Positions 21,377 to 26,214 are shown, counted from the stretch's first letter. The stretch is DNA of 32,000 nucleotides from Pyrobaculum sp. WP30 (GCA_001189275.1 CP012158.1:1323704-1355703), one strand, 5' to 3'. Program-made: numbers and translations. The notes: a model not told the origin generated them from the letters alone.

Positions 21377-21718
21377 ATGGCAACTATCAGAGGCGTGGTG
21401 GTGTCTAAGCAGCTGGTCTACGACCCGACAGGCGCCCGCTATGTAAAGATAGACATAGTCGAGGAGAGGGAGTTGCCCGGCCCAGTTGCGGCTTTTTCCG
21501 CGCAGGACGAACAGGCGGCGCAGCTGATGCGGGAGGTTATGCCGTTGGTTAGCCAAATCGTCAGGTCTCTGCCGTTTGGGGGTGGCAAAATAGCGGTGCC
21601 CCGCATTACGCTTTGGCTTACCGACGAGGAGGTGGAGGTCTTCGGCGACGTGGACGTGGGCGACGCGGTGATCATATACGTTGAGAACAACGAAATTAAA
21701 CTAAAGCCGGAAAGTTAA
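21377..21718 (+). CDS. rkd-1: Arcadin-1-like protein (gene immediately upstream of crenactin)
   Basis: 113-aa ORF with its own TATA (tttttataat, about 25 nt upstream of ATG 21377). The assignment rests on its conserved position upstream of crenactin, not on recognised motifs. Confidence 0.55.
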
Positions 21719-21724
21719 AAAAGG
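21713..21724 (+). promoter_or_regulatory. BRE/TATA element for crenactin
   Basis: agttaaaaaagg lies about 19-30 nt upstream of the GTG at 21743 and overlaps the preceding stop codon. Confidence 0.55.
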
Positions 21725-21742
21725 GGTGCTGGGGGCCGTCTC

Positions 21743-23038
21743 GTGATTTCAGACGCCTATAGGCTGAAGTACACCTTCGGCGTTGATTTTGGGACGAGTT
21801 ATGTGAAATACGGCCCGATCGTTCTCAACGAGCCTAGGGTTGCGCAGACTAGGGGCCTTTTCCTGAGGGATCTGCCCGAAAGCGTGAAGATGAGGATCCC
21901 GCCTGAGGTCCTCTCCCGCGGCCTTGTAGTTGGCGACGAGGAGGTACGGAGGTACCTCTCCAGCGTGAGAGACGTCCAGCGGAACCTGAAATACCCGCTT
22001 AAAGACGGCATAGCTAGGAGAGACGACGAAGATGCCTGGAGGGTGCTGAAGGAGCTTGCTAGGTACACCCTGGCGCAGTTCCCAGTTTCCGACCCTGAGT
22101 TCAGTGGGTGGCTTGTCTCTATCGCCTTATCGGCCTTGGCGCCCGACTACATGTATAAGGCCTTCTTCGACATATATACAGAGCTCGCCGGCGAGCACAG
22201 GATACACGCCGTCACGATACTGCCTCAGCCCTTGGCTGTGGCCATCGCGGAGAACGCGGTGAACTGCATAATTGTGGAGGGGGGCCACGGCAACATCCAG
22301 ATAGCGCCCATAAGCTTCGCCCTTATAAGGGAGGGCCTTGTGGCGCTGAACAGAGGCGGGGCGGAGGCTAACGCCATCACGCGGGAGATCCTGAAGGACA
22401 TCGGCTACAGCGACATCGCTAGGGAGGAGTACGCCGTTGAGGTGGTGAAGAGGGCCGTAGGCCTTGTGCCGAGGAACCTAAAGGAGGCGATTAAGGCGGC
22501 TAAGGCGAACCCGGACAGATTCGTGGCCAAGGTGCGCCTCTCGCCTGTGGTGGAGGTGGAGATTCCCAGGGAGTACGCCTGGACCAGGTTCTTGATTGGG
22601 GAGATAGTTTTCGACCCAAACCACGAGGAGATCAAGAGCTACATCGAGCAGTCTCGCCTCCACATTGAAAACGCCGTGATTGGAGACGTCACTTTATACG
22701 GCGAGATGGACGTAGCGACTGCAATAATAACCTCGCTGAGAAGCGTCTCAGTGGAGATACAAGACCGCGTGGCGTCGCAGATAATACTCAGCGGAGGCGC
22801 CTTCAGCTGGCGGGTGCCGCCGGGCCTAGAAGACGTGGCTGTAGACAGCGTGGGCCGTATGAAGATGGCTCTTGAGGAGAGGAACCCGGTCTTGGCGTCT
22901 AGGGTAAACGTCCGCCTAGTGGCGGAGCCTCAGTACTCGGTGTGGAGGGGGGCCGTTATATACGGCTACGCCCTGCCGCTGACGCTGGAGTGGTCGGACT
23001 CCACGAAGGAGGGCTGGTACTTCGTAGGGGGCCGGTGA
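21743..23038 (+). CDS. cren-1: Crenactin (archaeal actin homologue)
   Basis: 431 aa with actin-fold ATPase motifs in order: [12 protein letters not shown] (phosphate 1), [12 protein letters not shown] (phosphate 2), [10 protein letters not shown] (adenosine). N-terminus [25 protein letters not shown] matches my recollection of Pyrobaculum crenactin. Flanked by the arcadin set. Confidence 0.9.
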
Positions 23039-23039
23039 C

Positions 23040-23654: not shown

Positions 23655-23664
23655 TATATAAGTC
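23650..23664 (+). promoter_or_regulatory. TATA element for the 56-aa ORF
   Basis: gttaatatataagtc lies about 18-32 nt upstream of the GTG at 23682. Confidence 0.45.
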
Positions 23665-23681
23665 TCTACCACCTGTGTTCT

Positions 23682-23852
23682 GTGGATATATTGATTGAGG
23701 AGGTTGGGAAGGTCTTTGGTCATACAGACGAGGGGAGGCTGGCGGAGAGGCTTATTTCGGCGTATCGGGCGGGGGGTCCCAGCGCCGTTAAGGCGGTTCT
23801 GGTGGAATACCTAAAGACGCTGGGGGTCGATGTGGAGGCTGGAGAGGATTGA
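23682..23852 (+). CDS. rkd-3: Small ORF (56 aa), candidate arcadin-3; absent from the ORF track
   Basis: Manual translation: (M)DILIEEVGKVFGHTDEGRLAERLISAYRAGGPSAVKAVLVEYLKTLGVDVEAGED. It fills the gap between rkd-2 and rkd-4, has its own TATA and overlaps the rkd-4 start by 23 nt. Confidence 0.45.
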   Translation: MDILIEEVGKVFGHTDEGRLAERLISAYRAGGPSAVKAVLVEYLKTLGVDVEAGED

Positions 23853-26214
23853 GCTGGATAATTTCAGGTCCTATAGGGGGAGACACGTCGTCGAGTTCGG
23901 AGGGGTGAATGTGGTCTGGGGGCGGATCGGCGCCGGCAAGACCTCGCTCCTATACGCGGTGGAGTTCGCTTTGTTCGGGAGACAGCTGGAGGTGAAGGAG
24001 AGGGTGGCGAAGCTCATGGATTTGATAAACACGGAGACGCAGGAGATGAAAGTGGCTGTGACGCTTAAGAAAGACGGCGACGTCCTCAGGGTAGAGAGGC
24101 GGCTTAGCCGCCGCGGCGTAGAGAAAGTGATGCTTGTGCACAACGGGGTGGAGTTAAGGGGGAGGGAGGCCGAGGAGAGGTTGAAGGAGTTGCTACACGT
24201 CGACGAAGACGTATACGAGAGGTTGATCTACATATCACATAGAACGCTTGAGGGCTTTATCTACGGGACTACTCAGAAGAGGGCGTTGTCTGTCGATAGG
24301 CTGTTTGGGATAGACATAATAGACGGCGTCGTGAAGACTTTGACCTCTTTAGAAAAAGAGTTGTTGAAACAGGCGGAGGAGTTAAGGAGACGGCTCTCGG
24401 CCTACGAGAAGTACAAGGACGTGATGAGACGCTACGGCGGGTACGGCGGCGTCGTTTCGCGGCTTGAGACAGTGAAGAAGGAGATAGAGACGCTTAAGGA
24501 GAGGGAGAGGCGCCTCGCCGAAGAGGCGGAGGAGCTGGCCAAGAGAAGAACGGCCTATTTGACTAAGCTGAAGGAGGGCGAGGCGTTGCTTATTGAATAC
24601 TACAGAGCCAAGTCTGAATTGGAGCTTTTGGAGTCTGCCGCTGGCGGCGAAGAAATCGACGTGACAGTTCTGGAGAAGATAAGAGAAGCCCTAAGAGAGG
24701 CTCTGGAGGAGTATGAACATATGCTCCCTCATCAGCTCGTCGAGAGGTTGGAGTCGGCCCGCGACTTGGAGACTCTCTCGGCGGCGATGGCCGAGGCCTA
24801 CGACGCCCTTGTTAAATTATCTAAAGACATAGAGTCCCAGATATCCGACACGAAGAAGCTCTACGATCTCTACGTCGCCAAGGTGAAGAAGATAGAGGAG
24901 GAGATAGGCGACGCAGAGGCTAAACTTCGTAGGCTCGAGAAGCAGTATCTAAGATTTAAAGAACTTCAAAAGTCCTTCCAATCTCTGGAGGCCGCCAGAT
25001 CCGCATTGGCTGAGCACCGGAGGAAGCTGGCAGAGGTTGAGAAAGCCGTCTCCTTTTCTTCAGCCGTGAGAACAGTGGCGCTGTACATAGCCGAGACGGG
25101 GTTGGAGAGGTGTCCCATATGCGGCGCGCCCGTAAGCCGAGAGGCCGCGGCGGCTGTGGCGAAGGAAGTTGAGGCTAAATTCGGCGATTTAATACGCGAA
25201 GTTGAGGCGCTTAGGGAGAAGGTGAGGGAGTTAGAGAGGGCTGTGGAGGAGATGGAGACGTTGAGCGGCGACGTGGCGGAGTACCTAGCCACTAAGACTC
25301 GGCTAGAGGAGCTCCAGCTTGAGAGAGAAGAAAATGTGAAGAAGGCTTTACAGGCAGAGAAGGCTTTGAGGCAACTTGAGAAGAGGGCTGAGAGGCTTCG
25401 TCTCCTCCTCTCAAGAATAGACAGACGCACCATCTCAGAAGCGGTGTCTAAATACGCGAGGAGCCTTAAGGCACGAGATTTAAGACGCCGCCTAAAAGAG
25501 CTCGAGGCCCAGCTGAAAAACGCAGGTTTAACCGACGAGGCGCTCACGGCTGAAGTCCGCTGGCGCGAGGTGGCTGAGGAGCTGGAAAAAACGTCCAACC
25601 GCCTGACGGAGCTCTATAGGGAAAAAACCATGTTGGAGGAGGTGACGCGGGAGGTCGGCGGAGACGCCGACCTCCTGAAGAAGAGACTTGACAATGTGTT
25701 ATACGCTTACAGCCGGCTACAAGAGGTTAAGGCTAAGCTGGAGCTGGTAAAGGTGAACGCCAGGGCGAAGCTGTTGGAGACCGCAAAGGCTCGATTCAAC
25801 GAGACTTTTCTCGCACTTTATAAATACGGCGACATTGTGAGGGTGAATGCCGACTTAGAACAACGTAGAGGCTACTACGACTTCTACGCAGTGACCCCCA
25901 CGGGGGATAGATATGGAATTTCTAAACTCAGCGACGGCCAGAGGCTATCTATTGCGTTGGCGTTGGCCCTCGCCCTGAGAGATATAGCGAAGACAGACGT
26001 GGGGTTTATCATGTTTGACGAGCCCATCCCCTACGTCGACGTCAACATCAGAAACGCCTTTGTGGAGCTTGTCAAGACGCTTTCGGCACAGTATCAAATC
26101 GTAGTGGCGACCCAGTCCAGAGACTTCGCAGATATGTTGAAGCAAGCAGTGCCCAGCGCCAAGTTCTTCACTGTGACCAAGAAAGAGAGCTCCGAAATAA
26201 AAGAAGTGGCCTAG
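23830..26214 (+). CDS. rkd-4: Arcadin-4-like SMC/Rad50-type coiled-coil ATPase
   Basis: 794 aa. Walker A GRIGAGKTS at the N-terminus, about 550 aa of heptad-rich Glu/Lys/Arg/Leu coiled coil with a central CPICG (nt 25111-25122), then signature-like LSDGQRLSIALALALAL and Walker B FIMFDEP at the C-terminus. Confidence 0.8.
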   Translation: MWRLERIELDNFRSYRGRHVVEFGGVNVVWGRIGAGKTSLLYAVEFALFGRQLEVKERVAKLMDLINTETQEMKVAVTLKKDGDVLRVERRLSRRGVEKVMLVHNGVELRGREAEERLKELLHVDEDVYERLIYISHRTLEGFIYGTTQKRALSVDRLFGIDIIDGVVKTLTSLEKELLKQAEELRRRLSAYEKYKDVMRRYGGYGGVVSRLETVKKEIETLKERERRLAEEAEELAKRRTAYLTKLKEGEALLIEYYRAKSELELLESAAGGEEIDVTVLEKIREALREALEEYEHMLPHQLVERLESARDLETLSAAMAEAYDALVKLSKDIESQISDTKKLYDLYVAKVKKIEEEIGDAEAKLRRLEKQYLRFKELQKSFQSLEAARSALAEHRRKLAEVEKAVSFSSAVRTVALYIAETGLERCPICGAPVSREAAAAVAKEVEAKFGDLIREVEALREKVRELERAVEEMETLSGDVAEYLATKTRLEELQLEREENVKKALQAEKALRQLEKRAERLRLLLSRIDRRTISEAVSKYARSLKARDLRRRLKELEAQLKNAGLTDEALTAEVRWREVAEELEKTSNRLTELYREKTMLEEVTREVGGDADLLKKRLDNVLYAYSRLQEVKAKLELVKVNARAKLLETAKARFNETFLALYKYGDIVRVNADLEQRRGYYDFYAVTPTGDRYGISKLSDGQRLSIALALALALRDIAKTDVGFIMFDEPIPYVDVNIRNAFVELVKTLSAQYQIVVATQSRDFADMLKQAVPSAKFFTVTKKESSEIKEVA

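What the first reader, a model, noticed from the sequence alone, without database searches (positions are those of the whole stretch)
21377..26214. Complete crenactin-arcadin (arcade) actin-cytoskeleton cluster
A 431-aa protein with all actin-fold nucleotide-binding motifs is flanked by four partner genes on the same strand. These are a 113-aa gene upstream, then a 204-aa gene, a 56-aa ORF and a 794-aa SMC/Rad50-like coiled-coil ATPase downstream. Gaps between the genes are 1 to about 27 nt, or they overlap. This matches the arcade cluster known from Thermoproteales, a lineage that lacks both FtsZ and the Cdv/ESCRT division machinery. The cellular role of the system (shape versus division versus DNA segregation) and the functions of arcadin-1, -3 and -4 remain largely open, so this is the most biologically interesting locus in the window. 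It is not strictly undescribed.
Basis: partly seen in the sequence, partly recalled or inferred. Interest (0 to 1): 0.75.

Follow-up and report, generated by a model that had tools for sequence, protein, structure and literature searches.

The report
Known archaeal actin (crenactin–arcadin) gene cluster

Summary
The observation and the interpretation both hold. Five same-strand genes sit at 21377–26214, spaced exactly as described. Each hits a curated model for its family: Pfam Arcadin_1, and NCBIfam crenactin, arcadin-2 (0.6 bits under its cut-off), arcadin-3 and arcadin-4. The actin is 89.7% identical to solved P. calidifontis crenactin. Arcadin-1 is 82.3% identical to solved P. aerophilum arcadin-1. 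All 12 related Pyrobaculum/Thermoproteus loci keep the same gene order, and all five genes are under purifying selection. The exact proteins are already public (Pyrobaculum sp. WP30), though mostly labelled "hypothetical". The system is therefore already known; only its cellular role remains open.

I add four modest details:
- Conserved TATA-like boxes about 27 nt upstream of arcadin-1, crenactin and arcadin-3 suggest three transcription units, with arcadin-3/-4 coupled by a conserved 23-nt overlap.
- The arcadin-2 N-domain is predicted, with moderate confidence, to have a restriction-endonuclease-like fold without the canonical catalytic motif.
- Arcadin-4 has an apparent reciprocal Q-loop/H-loop residue swap relative to Rad50.
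- WP30 carries an imported, divergent arcadin-4 allele.

The parts
21350..21357 (+). TATA-like box (TTTTTATA) 27 nt upstream of the arcadin-1 ATG. It overlaps the stop codon of the upstream nitroreductase-family gene.
   Evidence: an 8-mer with at least 7/8 A/T lies within -36..-18 in 13/13 orthologous loci, against a background P(>=7/8) of 0.097. Its function as a promoter is inferred, not shown.
21377..21718 (+). arcadin-1 (rkd-1), 113 aa
   Evidence: Pfam Arcadin_1 PF18653 scores 150.5 bits against a cut-off of 25. It is 82.3% identical to PDB 5ly5, P. aerophilum arcadin-1. Present in 12/12 loci.
21715..21722 (+). TATA-like box (TTAAAAAA) 28 nt upstream of the crenactin GTG. It overlaps the arcadin-1 stop codon.
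   Evidence: at least 7/8 A/T in 13/13 loci. Inferred promoter.
21743..23038 (+). crenactin (cren-1), 431 aa, GTG start
   Evidence: NCBIfam NF053560 crenactin scores 716.7 bits against a cut-off of 630. It is 89.7% identical over 426 residues to PDB 4cj7/5ly3/5mw1. The ATP-binding motifs and the residues equivalent to Q164, V339 and E340 are conserved.
23040..23654 (+). arcadin-2 (rkd-2), 204 aa, GTG start 1 nt after the crenactin stop
   Evidence: NCBIfam NF053561 Rkd2 scores 289.4 bits against a cut-off of 290. Present in 12/12 loci. The AF2 model shows an N-domain (1-105), a long helix (119-164), a disordered Pro-rich linker and a C-terminal helix (192-202).
23610..23633 (+). arcadin-2 C-terminal motif NEWVRILR (aa 191-198), the crenactin-groove-binding Trp helix
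   Evidence: N, W, V, L and R of this motif are invariant in 13/13 orthologues. The motif is kept as N-x-W-[VIL]-x-[IV]-[LI] in all distant family members retrieved. It corresponds to the C-terminal peptide (residues 187-203) that binds the crenactin hydrophobic groove in PDB 5LY3 (PMC5173319).
23651..23658 (+). TATA-like box (TTAATATA) 31 nt upstream of the arcadin-3 GTG. It overlaps the arcadin-2 stop codon.
   Evidence: at least 7/8 A/T in 13/13 loci. Inferred internal promoter for the arcadin-3/-4 pair.
23682..23852 (+). arcadin-3 (rkd-3), 56 aa
   Evidence: NCBIfam NF053562 Rkd3 scores 92.8 bits against a cut-off of 90. The ORF is intact (53-58 aa) in 12/12 loci. The single-sequence AF2 model has pLDDT 87 and shows three helices plus an acidic tail.
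23830..26214 (+). arcadin-4 (rkd-4), 794 aa, a Rad50-derived coiled-coil ABC ATPase. Its start overlaps the arcadin-3 3' end by 23 nt.
   Evidence: NCBIfam NF053563 Rkd4 scores 1010 bits against a cut-off of 860; Rad50 equivalogs reach only 124 bits or less against cut-offs of 700-1087. The closest solved relatives are Rad50 heads. The 23-nt overlap is conserved in 11/12 loci.
23920..23943 (+). arcadin-4 Walker A, GRIGAGKT (aa 31-38)
   Evidence: G31, R32 and the GAGK core are invariant in the 12 complete sequences; position 33 is I or V and position 38 is T or S.
24229..24240 (+). arcadin-4 YISH (aa 134-137); His137 aligns with the Rad50 Q-loop Gln (P. furiosus YIRQ)
   Evidence: HMMER alignment to 3qkr_A/1ii8_A. 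YISH is invariant in 12/12. Numbering of the P. furiosus Gln as Q140 is from my own knowledge.
25111..25125 (+). arcadin-4 mid-coiled-coil zinc-hook motif CPICG (aa 428-432)
   Evidence: CP[IV]CG is invariant in 12/12. It resembles the Rad50 CxxC hook. Izore 2016 notes similarity to Rad50 in the hinge region.
25927..26115 (+). arcadin-4 C-terminal ATPase motifs: signature LSDGQ (aa 700-704), Walker B FIMFDEP (726-732), D-loop PYVD (734-737), and VATQ (759-762), where Gln762 aligns with the Rad50 H-loop His
   Evidence: The signature motif is invariant. The Walker B Glu is Asp in L008, L010 and L011. Gln at the H-loop position is invariant in 12/12.

Best explanation
This is the orthologue, in Pyrobaculum sp. 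WP30, of the arcade cluster (rkd-1, cren-1, rkd-2, rkd-3, rkd-4) first described in P. calidifontis.

Shown experimentally for near-identical orthologues:
- Crenactin binds ATP and polymerises into F-actin-like double-helical filaments.
[quoted passage not shown] It thereby sequesters monomers and depolymerises filaments.
- Arcadin-1 oligomerises and binds crenactin weakly without changing polymerisation.

Inferred here from sequence:
- The cluster is read from three leaderless-type promoters: arcadin-1; crenactin plus arcadin-2 (in this lineage); and arcadin-3 plus arcadin-4.
- Arcadin-3 and arcadin-4 are translationally coupled and probably act together.
- Arcadin-4 is a Rad50-derived ABC ATPase. 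It probably dimerises through a zinc hook and through ATP-engaged heads, giving a long bridging or scaffolding element.

Inferred from the literature only: the cellular output is rod-shape maintenance and/or cytokinesis in a lineage without FtsZ or ESCRT.
For: - Family assignment: all five curated models; 89.7% identity to solved crenactin, E = 4.8e-258; arcadin-1 vs 5ly5, E = 2e-58.
- Synteny: (12/12 loci, same order and strand; 23-nt arcadin-3/-4 overlap in 11/12).
- Selection: (dN/dS 0.04-0.36 where dS is not saturated).
- Functional residues: crenactin motifs, Q164/V339/E340 equivalents; arcadin-2 NEWVRILR motif conserved family-wide; arcadin-4 Walker A/B, signature, CxxC hook.
- Promoter boxes.
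- Biochemistry of the orthologues: PMC5173319.
- Rad50 origin of arcadin-4: PMC9389158.
- Absence of FtsZ/ESCRT in Thermoproteales, with crenactin/arcadins as the 'most likely division machinery': PMC7617429, PMC7613921 and the Culexarchaeia preprint.
Against: - Nothing contradicts the identification.
- Arcadin-2 falls 0.6 bits below the NCBIfam Rkd2 cut-off (289.4 vs 290).
- The cellular function is not established. The helical localisation reported in 2011 is now treated with caution, and no genetic or live-cell data exist in the searched literature up to 2026.
- The promoter and operon structure is inferred from A/T-rich boxes only.
- Arcadin-4 has non-canonical residues at the Q-loop and H-loop positions, so its ATPase activity cannot be assumed to be Rad50-like.
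Confidence: 0.93

Rival explanations
1. The cluster is a chromosome- or plasmid-segregation machine of the ParMRC type. In this reading the actin filaments push DNA apart. Arcadin-2 acts as the ParR-like adaptor that binds the actin groove with its C-terminus and DNA with its N-domain, and arcadin-4 organises DNA.
For: - Arcadin-2 binds the same groove that ParR uses on ParM (PMC5173319).
- Its N-domain model resembles nuclease/DNA-binding folds: XisH, EndA, BamHI and Ecl18kI.
- Arcadin-4 derives from the DNA-repair ATPase Rad50.
- Arcadin-2 was reported at mid-cell between segregated nucleoids (citing Ettema 2011).
Against: - No centromere-like repeat array lies in or beside the cluster.
- The arcadin-2 N-domain is acidic (pI 5.0) and lacks the canonical D...(D/E)xK motif.
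- Arcadin-2 depolymerises filaments rather than capping or stabilising them.
- The filament is F-actin-like, not ParM-like.
- The fold assignment itself is of only moderate confidence: one of five models reaches pLDDT 71.7, and the best Foldseek E is 4e-4.
Confidence: 0.12
2. The 794-aa gene is the cell's genuine Rad50 DNA-repair ATPase, as the GenBank annotation 'ATPase involved in DNA repair' implies. Its position next to the actin gene would then be coincidental.
For: The nearest solved relatives are Rad50 heads (E = 1e-13). It has a CxxC hook. The arcadin-4 clade nests within the Rad50 radiation.
Against: - All Rad50 equivalog models score 68-124 bits against cut-offs of 700-1087, whereas Rkd4 scores 1010 against 860.
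- No Mre11-type gene is adjacent; the neighbours are arcadin-3 and a TrmB-like regulator.
- Linkage to crenactin is conserved in all 11 loci that reach that far, and the truncated L003 still carries the arcadin-4 start.
- The Q-loop and H-loop residues differ from Rad50.
Confidence: 0.02
3. The 431-aa protein is an Hsp70 or sugar-kinase-type ASKHA ATPase rather than a filament-forming actin. Several NCBI MAG records label members of its 90% cluster 'heat-shock protein Hsp70'.
For: Some database names in its cluster read 'heat-shock protein Hsp70'. The Pfam Actin score is weak (29.2 bits against a cut-off of 27).
Against: There is no Hsp70 or kinase family hit at E <= 1. The crenactin equivalog gives E = 8.7e-216. 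The protein is 89.7% identical to a protein whose filament structure has been solved.
Confidence: 0.01

Closest known systems
Arcade cluster of Pyrobaculum calidifontis (Ettema, Lindas & Bernander 2011; Izore et al. 2016, PMC5173319)
   Same: The same five genes lie in the same order on one strand. Crenactin is 89.7% identical. The arcadin-2 C-terminal Trp helix is conserved. Arcadin-4 is Rad50-like with a hook. All five hit the curated models built for this system.
   Different: There is no difference in kind. In WP30 and its closest relatives the crenactin/arcadin-2 junction is 1 nt and has no TATA-like box, whereas 8 of 13 loci have one. WP30 also carries a divergent arcadin-4 allele, 82% identical to its nearest relatives against 96-99% for the other four genes.
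Eukaryotic F-actin with monomer-sequestering or groove-binding regulators (thymosin beta-4, WH2 domains)
   Same: Double-helical filament architecture. Regulation by a short helix that binds the hydrophobic groove between subdomains.
   Different: Arcadin-2 has no detectable sequence similarity to eukaryotic sequesterers, and convergence has been proposed. Its N-terminal domain is predicted here to be restriction-endonuclease-like, which is unlike any actin-binding protein.
Rad50 (Mre11-Rad50 DNA double-strand-break repair complex)
   Same: N- and C-terminal ABC ATPase half-heads separated by an antiparallel coiled coil with a central CxxC zinc hook. Walker A, Walker B, signature and D-loop motifs are present.
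   Different: No Mre11 partner gene is adjacent. The protein is shorter (794 aa). Rad50 equivalog models are missed by a wide margin. His sits at the Q-loop position and Gln at the H-loop position. The signature is LSDGQ rather than LSGGE. It is linked to an actin gene and overlapped by a 56-aa partner gene.
ParMRC plasmid-partition system
   Same: An actin-like filament plus an adaptor whose C-terminus binds the actin hydrophobic groove.
   Different: The locus is chromosomal and conserved across the family. It has no centromere repeats. Arcadin-2 depolymerises filaments instead of stabilising their ends.

Membership tests
Crenactin (NCBIfam NF053560, equivalog) | Whole-protein score above the curated cut-off | tested here: met
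   716.7 bits against a cut-off of 630, covering model positions 1-422 of 422.
Crenactin | Actin-fold nucleotide-binding motifs and catalytic/polymerisation residues of the solved P. calidifontis protein | tested here: met
   DFGTS at 15, EGGHG at 179 and SGGA at 350. Q162, V337 and E338 correspond to Q164, V339 and E340. Identity to 4cj7 is 89.7%.
Crenactin | ATP-dependent assembly into double-helical filaments | not testable with these tools
   Shown only for the P. calidifontis orthologue (PMC5173319).
Arcadin-1 (Pfam PF18653) | Score above the gathering threshold, and similarity to the solved arcadin-1 | tested here: met
   150.5 bits against 25. E = 2e-58 and 82.3% identity to 5ly5.
Arcadin-2 (NCBIfam NF053561 Rkd2, equivalog) | Whole-protein score above the curated cut-off | tested here: inconclusive
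   289.4 bits against a cut-off of 290, a 0.6-bit shortfall, with full-length coverage of 1-195/196. Orthology is supported by position and by 12/12 synteny.
Arcadin-2 | Conserved C-terminal Trp-containing helix, separated from the core by an unstructured linker, that binds the crenactin groove | tested here: met
   NEWVRILR at aa 191-198. It is invariant or nearly so in 13/13 sequences and kept in all distant members. The linker 167-187 has pLDDT < 50. Binding itself was not tested.
Arcadin-3 (NCBIfam NF053562 Rkd3) | Score above the cut-off; small ORF between arcadin-2 and arcadin-4 | tested here: met
   92.8 bits against 90, covering 56/56 positions. The ORF is intact in 12/12 loci.
Arcadin-4 (NCBIfam NF053563 Rkd4) | Score above the cut-off; SMC/Rad50-type split ATPase head with coiled coil and hook | tested here: met
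   1010 bits against 860. Walker A, signature, Walker B and the CPICG hook are located and conserved.
Arcade cluster (system level) | The five genes co-located in the order rkd-1, cren-1, rkd-2, rkd-3, rkd-4 on one strand, conserved in Thermoproteales | tested here: met
   Window. All 12 related loci.
Arcade cluster (system level) | Host lineage lacks FtsZ and Cdv/ESCRT-III | not testable with these tools
   Only 32 kb of the genome is available here. The statement rests on the literature.
Rad50 proper | Score above the Rad50 equivalog cut-offs, and an adjacent Mre11 nuclease gene | tested here: not met
   The best Rad50 model scores 123.8 bits against a cut-off of 700. The neighbouring genes are arcadin-3 and a TrmB-like regulator.
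ParMRC-type segregation locus | Centromere-like array of direct or inverted repeats next to the actin/adaptor genes | tested here: not met
   Only short two-copy chance matches inside coding sequence were found.
Hsp70 / sugar-kinase ASKHA families | A better profile match than to actin or crenactin | tested here: not met
   No such family appears at E <= 1 in Pfam or among the NCBIfam hits.
PD-(D/E)XK restriction-endonuclease-like fold (arcadin-2 N-domain) | The alpha-beta-beta-beta-alpha-beta core fold | tested here: inconclusive
PD-(D/E)XK restriction-endonuclease-like fold (arcadin-2 N-domain) | Catalytic D...(D/E)xK motif on strands beta2/beta3 | tested here: not met
   The invariant residues are E14, G33, N35, V37, Y47, E48, E51, K54, K66, D80, G88, G90 and D95. 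There is no (D/E)xK on beta3, which reads NRVAV. The assignment is by topology only, because model coordinates could not be inspected.

The most novel reading that the evidence does not exclude
The arcade cluster may encode two coupled modules.
- The first is a crenactin filament whose monomer pool is set by arcadin-2. Arcadin-2 would be a bivalent adaptor: a catalytically dead nuclease-like N-domain plus a dimerising helix would tether the groove-binding peptide to a specific cellular site, either DNA or the division plane.
- The second is a separately transcribed, translationally coupled arcadin-3/arcadin-4 complex. Here a three-helix accessory protein would regulate a Rad50-derived, zinc-hook-dimerising ATPase with a rewired active site (Q-loop His, H-loop Gln).
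Together they would form an actin-plus-SMC-like machine for nucleoid partitioning and cytokinesis in archaea that lack FtsZ and ESCRT.
Probability: 0.15. Interest if true: 0.8.

Novelty: already known. Interest (0 to 1): 0.25.

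Why it matters
The system matters in its own right. It is the closest prokaryotic relative of F-actin outside the Asgard archaea, and it is the leading candidate for the unknown division machinery of Thermoproteales. This locus, however, adds only another orthologue from a genus that has already been studied.

Its practical value is for annotation. The WP30 GenBank record names four of the five genes 'hypothetical' or 'DNA repair ATPase', and some MAG records label crenactin 'Hsp70'. 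Arcadin-2 also slips 0.6 bits under the NCBIfam cut-off.

The small new observations give experimenters concrete, cheap hypotheses. These are the promoter layout, the nuclease-like arcadin-2 N-domain, the arcadin-3/-4 coupling and the arcadin-4 Q/H swap. None of them changes the picture.

Tried and rejected
- Arcadin-2 against PDB sequences gave only noise (IL-11, E = 0.84). The 17-residue peptide in 5LY3 (arcadin-2 residues 187-203) is below that library's 20-residue limit.
- A profile search of the arcadin-2 N-domain against 1.84 billion representatives found only 10 clusters, all arcadin-2-like. Pfam found nothing in the distant members. There is thus no sequence bridge to any nuclease family.
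- The arcadin-3 fold search found nothing significant (best E = 0.89). The idea that it resembles a known Rad50/SMC accessory module is unsupported but not excluded.
- A repeat search for a centromere-like array was negative.
- Oligo-T terminator analysis was uninformative: 2 T5+ runs inside the cluster against 1.2 expected, and only T4 runs after arcadin-4.
- The minus-strand 210-aa ORF inside arcadin-4 (24966..25598) is Ser-rich and appears to be an antisense artefact of the Glu/Leu/Lys-rich coiled-coil coding sequence. I did not pursue it.
- ARAGORN found no tRNA in the window, but Rfam found one.
- The bacterial sigma-70 promoter scanner was not used, because it does not apply to archaea.

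Full report
**Observation.** One search confirms five ORFs on the + strand at the reported coordinates.
- arcadin-1: 21377..21718, 113 aa from the ATG (the ORF opens at a TTG at 21359)
- crenactin: 21743..23038, 431 aa, GTG start
- arcadin-2: 23040..23654, 204 aa, GTG start
- arcadin-3: 23682..23852, 56 aa, GTG start
- arcadin-4: 23830..26214, 794 aa, ATG start

The spacings are 24 nt, 1 nt, 27 nt and a 23-nt overlap. The description is accurate in every detail.

**Identity of the genes.** Every gene hits the curated model made for that member of the arcade cluster.

| Gene | Model | Score (bits) | Cut-off (bits) |
|---|---|---|---|
| arcadin-1 | Pfam Arcadin_1 PF18653 | 150.5 | 25 |
| crenactin | NCBIfam NF053560 | 716.7 | 630 |
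| arcadin-2 | NCBIfam Rkd2 NF053561 | 289.4 | 290 |
| arcadin-3 | NCBIfam Rkd3 NF053562 | 92.8 | 90 |
| arcadin-4 | NCBIfam Rkd4 NF053563 | 1010 | 860 |

Only arcadin-2 falls short, by 0.6 bits, although it covers the full model length. Against solved structures, the actin is 89.7% identical over 426 residues to P. calidifontis crenactin (4cj7/5ly3/5mw1, E = 4.8e-258). The 113-aa protein is 82.3% identical to P. aerophilum arcadin-1 (5ly5). No Hsp70 or sugar-kinase family appears even at E <= 1. The phosphate-1, phosphate-2 and adenosine motifs are present, as are the equivalents of catalytic Q164 and of the polymerisation residues V339/E340.

**Source.** All five exact protein sequences are already public as AKT35151–AKT35155 of Pyrobaculum sp. 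WP30. There they are named 'hypothetical protein', 'Actin', 'hypothetical protein', 'hypothetical protein' and 'ATPase involved in DNA repair'. Some MAG records in the same 90% cluster call crenactin 'heat-shock protein Hsp70'. Those names are annotation weaknesses, not biology.

**Synteny and selection.** A scan of one genome per GTDB species returned 12 loci: Pyrobaculum spp. including P. oguniense, two Thermoproteus MAGs, and Thermoproteaceae/Thermoproteales MAGs.
- All 12 carry arcadin-1, crenactin and arcadin-2, -3, -4 in the same order and on the same strand. L003 is cut by its contig end just inside arcadin-4.
- Mean pairwise identity is 0.83 for crenactin, 0.74 for arcadin-1, 0.58 for arcadin-3, 0.54 for arcadin-2 and 0.53 for arcadin-4.
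- dN/dS is 0.04–0.36 wherever dS is not saturated, so all five genes, including the 56-aa ORF, are maintained by purifying selection.

**How it works: what is shown elsewhere.** Izoré et al. 2016 (PMC5173319) established the following for the P. calidifontis proteins.
- Crenactin forms F-actin-like double-helical filaments.
- Arcadin-2 depolymerises them. Its C-terminal peptide (residues 187–203) binds the hydrophobic groove with a Kd of about 31 nM, competing with the D-loop of the neighbouring subunit. A tryptophan makes key contacts.
- Arcadin-1 forms dimers and probably octamers. It binds crenactin with a Kd of about 15 µM and has no effect on polymerisation.

In the window, the arcadin-2 C-terminus reads NEWVRILR (aa 191–198). 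N, W, V, L and R of this motif are invariant across the 13 orthologues. The motif persists as N-x-W-[VIL]-x-[IV]-[LI] in every distant member retrieved. I therefore infer with high confidence that the sequestering mechanism is conserved here.

**Arcadin-4.** Its closest solved relatives are Rad50 heads (E = 1e-13). Yoshinaga et al. 2022 place the arcadin-4 clade inside the Rad50 radiation (PMC9389158).
- Walker A is GRIGAGKT (aa 31–38).
- The signature motif is LSDGQ (aa 700–704).
- Walker B is FIMFDEP (aa 726–732); the Glu is Asp in three relatives.
- The D-loop is PYVD (aa 734–737).
- A mid-coil CPICG hook sits at aa 428–432 and is invariant as CP[IV]CG.

Direct HMMER alignments to Rad50 put His137 (YISH) on the Q-loop Gln (P. 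furiosus YIRQ). They put Gln762 (VATQ) on the H-loop His (ITH). Both residues are invariant in all 12 complete sequences. This apparent reciprocal swap rests on sequence alignment only. A term search of the arcadin-4 phylogeny paper found no mention of the Q-loop or H-loop, and I did not see it raised in the other papers I read. Rad50 equivalog models are missed by a wide margin (124 bits or less against cut-offs of 700–1087), and no Mre11-type gene is adjacent. The protein is therefore not Rad50 itself.

**Transcription layout (inferred).** An 8-mer with at least 7 of 8 A/T lies within −36..−18 of the start codon of arcadin-1, crenactin and arcadin-3 in 13 of 13 loci each. The background probability for any such position is 0.097. 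In the window the boxes are TTTTTATA (21350), TTAAAAAA (21715) and TTAATATA (23651). Each overlaps the stop codon of the preceding gene. This spacing is what I would expect for archaeal TATA boxes driving leaderless mRNAs (my own knowledge).
- Arcadin-4 has no such box (3 of 13, near the chance level). It starts at a conserved ATGTGG inside the arcadin-3 3' end, with a 23-nt overlap in 11 of 12 loci. This argues for translational coupling.
- Arcadin-2 has a box in 8 of 13 loci but not in the window, L001, L002, L004 or L008. In those five the crenactin/arcadin-2 junction is 1–2 nt or an overlap, so here arcadin-2 is probably co-transcribed with crenactin.

**Predicted structures.**
- With a 21-sequence alignment, the best arcadin-2 model has mean pLDDT 71.7; the other four models reach 54–60. 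It shows an N-domain (residues 1–105, pLDDT about 72–90) with the topology α-β-β-β-α-β-α-β. A long helix follows (119–164), then a disordered Pro-rich linker, then the C-terminal helix.
- Foldseek against the PDB returns almost only restriction-endonuclease-like folds: XisH 2okf/2inb (E = 4e-4 to 9e-4, TMt = 0.52), archaeal and human tRNA-splicing endonuclease, AF2093, BamHI, EcoT38I, Ecl18kI and Bax1.
- The invariant residues do not form the canonical D…(D/E)xK motif. The domain is acidic, with pI 5.0. If the fold call is right, the domain is probably not a nuclease and not an obvious DNA binder.
- The family is tiny: 10 clusters at 50% identity among 1.84 billion proteins, all 196–231 aa with the same architecture.
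- Arcadin-3 folds confidently from a single sequence (pLDDT 87) into three helices plus an acidic tail. It has no significant structural neighbour.

**Rival explanations.**
- A ParMRC-type segregation locus is disfavoured. There is no centromere-like repeat array, and arcadin-2 depolymerises filaments rather than stabilising them.
- Genuine Rad50 is rejected by the score cut-offs, the missing Mre11 neighbour and the conserved linkage to crenactin.
- An Hsp70 or sugar-kinase identity is rejected.

**State of knowledge.** Reviews from 2022 and 2024 still describe Thermoproteales as lacking FtsZ and ESCRT. They call crenactin plus arcadins 'the most likely division machinery' without direct evidence, and they caution that the 2011 helical immunolocalisation may be unreliable. 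A search for work from 2023 to 2026 found no new in vivo data. Crenactin and some arcadins also occur in Culexarchaeia and Caldarchaeales, so the system is not strictly confined to Thermoproteales.

**Verdict.** However, the locus is an orthologue of a described, structurally characterised and HMM-curated system, in a published genome of the same genus as the model organism. Novelty is 'already known' and interest for a scan is low (0.25). The details added here are hypotheses for specialists, not discoveries.

Noticed in passing
window ~24010-27400/27800 (arcadin-4 from about aa 60, TrmB-like gene 26323..27048 on the - strand, and the 5' part of the radical-SAM gene): There is a sharp divergent tract relative to the closest genome, L001 (Pyrobaculum sp. 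PSS.bin.21). DNA identity is about 98% up to about 24010, falls to 70-84% until about 27400, and returns to 96-98% from about 27800. dS jumps from about 0.04-0.07 (arcadin-1, crenactin, arcadin-2) to about 1.1 in arcadin-4 after aa 60, while dN/dS stays at about 0.11. L001 and L002 are 96% identical to each other in arcadin-4, but both are only 82% identical to the window. WP30 therefore appears to have acquired a divergent arcadin-4/TrmB allele by homologous recombination, with the left breakpoint just after the Walker A region.
   Followed up: yes
window ~28347-28351 (inside the radical-SAM gene 26990..28567 / 28353..28862): A run of five C's (AACCCCCATG) replaces the four C's found in all 10 loci that align across this site. 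This splits a conserved radical-SAM gene (Pfam Radical_SAM plus Zn_ribbon_HMPTM) into two overlapping ORFs in different frames. It is either a homopolymer sequencing error in the WP30 assembly or a very recent pseudogene.
   Followed up: yes
window 26323..27048 (-) and 26990..28862 (+): A divergently oriented TrmB-family regulator and the radical-SAM gene lie immediately downstream of arcadin-4 in 10 of 12 related loci, including both Thermoproteus loci. This could reflect conserved genome order or a regulatory link to the cluster; I did not resolve which. The listed radical-SAM start (26990) overlaps the TrmB-like gene by 59 nt. Relatives align only from about residue 33-47 in the more distant loci, so the true start is probably the Met at about 27128.
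   Followed up: partly
window 8662..8762 (-): Rfam finds a tRNA (53.2 bits) spanning 101 nt for a 71-position model, so it probably contains an intron. ARAGORN found no tRNA in the window. A tRNA-intron endonuclease gene lies at 18572..19123.
   Followed up: no
window 24966..25598 (-): A 210-aa Ser-rich ORF lies antisense to the arcadin-4 coiled-coil region. It looks like a mirror-image artefact of Glu/Leu/Lys-rich coding sequence rather than a gene.
   Followed up: no
window 20374..20805 (-) versus 20594..21358 (+): A minus-strand ORF overlaps the start of the nitroreductase-family gene by about 210 nt. Its C-terminal part has two CxxC pairs (CPYCKHKF...CPKCGRSF), resembling a zinc ribbon. 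A shorter internal start would remove the overlap. It has no Pfam hit.
   Followed up: no
window 19767..20162 (-) and 20594..21358 (+): An Hsp20 gene and a nitroreductase-family gene lie upstream of arcadin-1, and both are conserved in most Pyrobaculum loci. The nitroreductase stop codon sits inside the arcadin-1 TATA-like box, leaving only 18 nt between the two genes.
   Followed up: partly
L008, L010, L011 (arcadin-4 orthologues): The Walker B catalytic Glu is replaced by Asp (FDDP/LDDP) in three of the twelve arcadin-4 orthologues. This hints that fast ATP hydrolysis may not be essential to the family.
   Followed up: no
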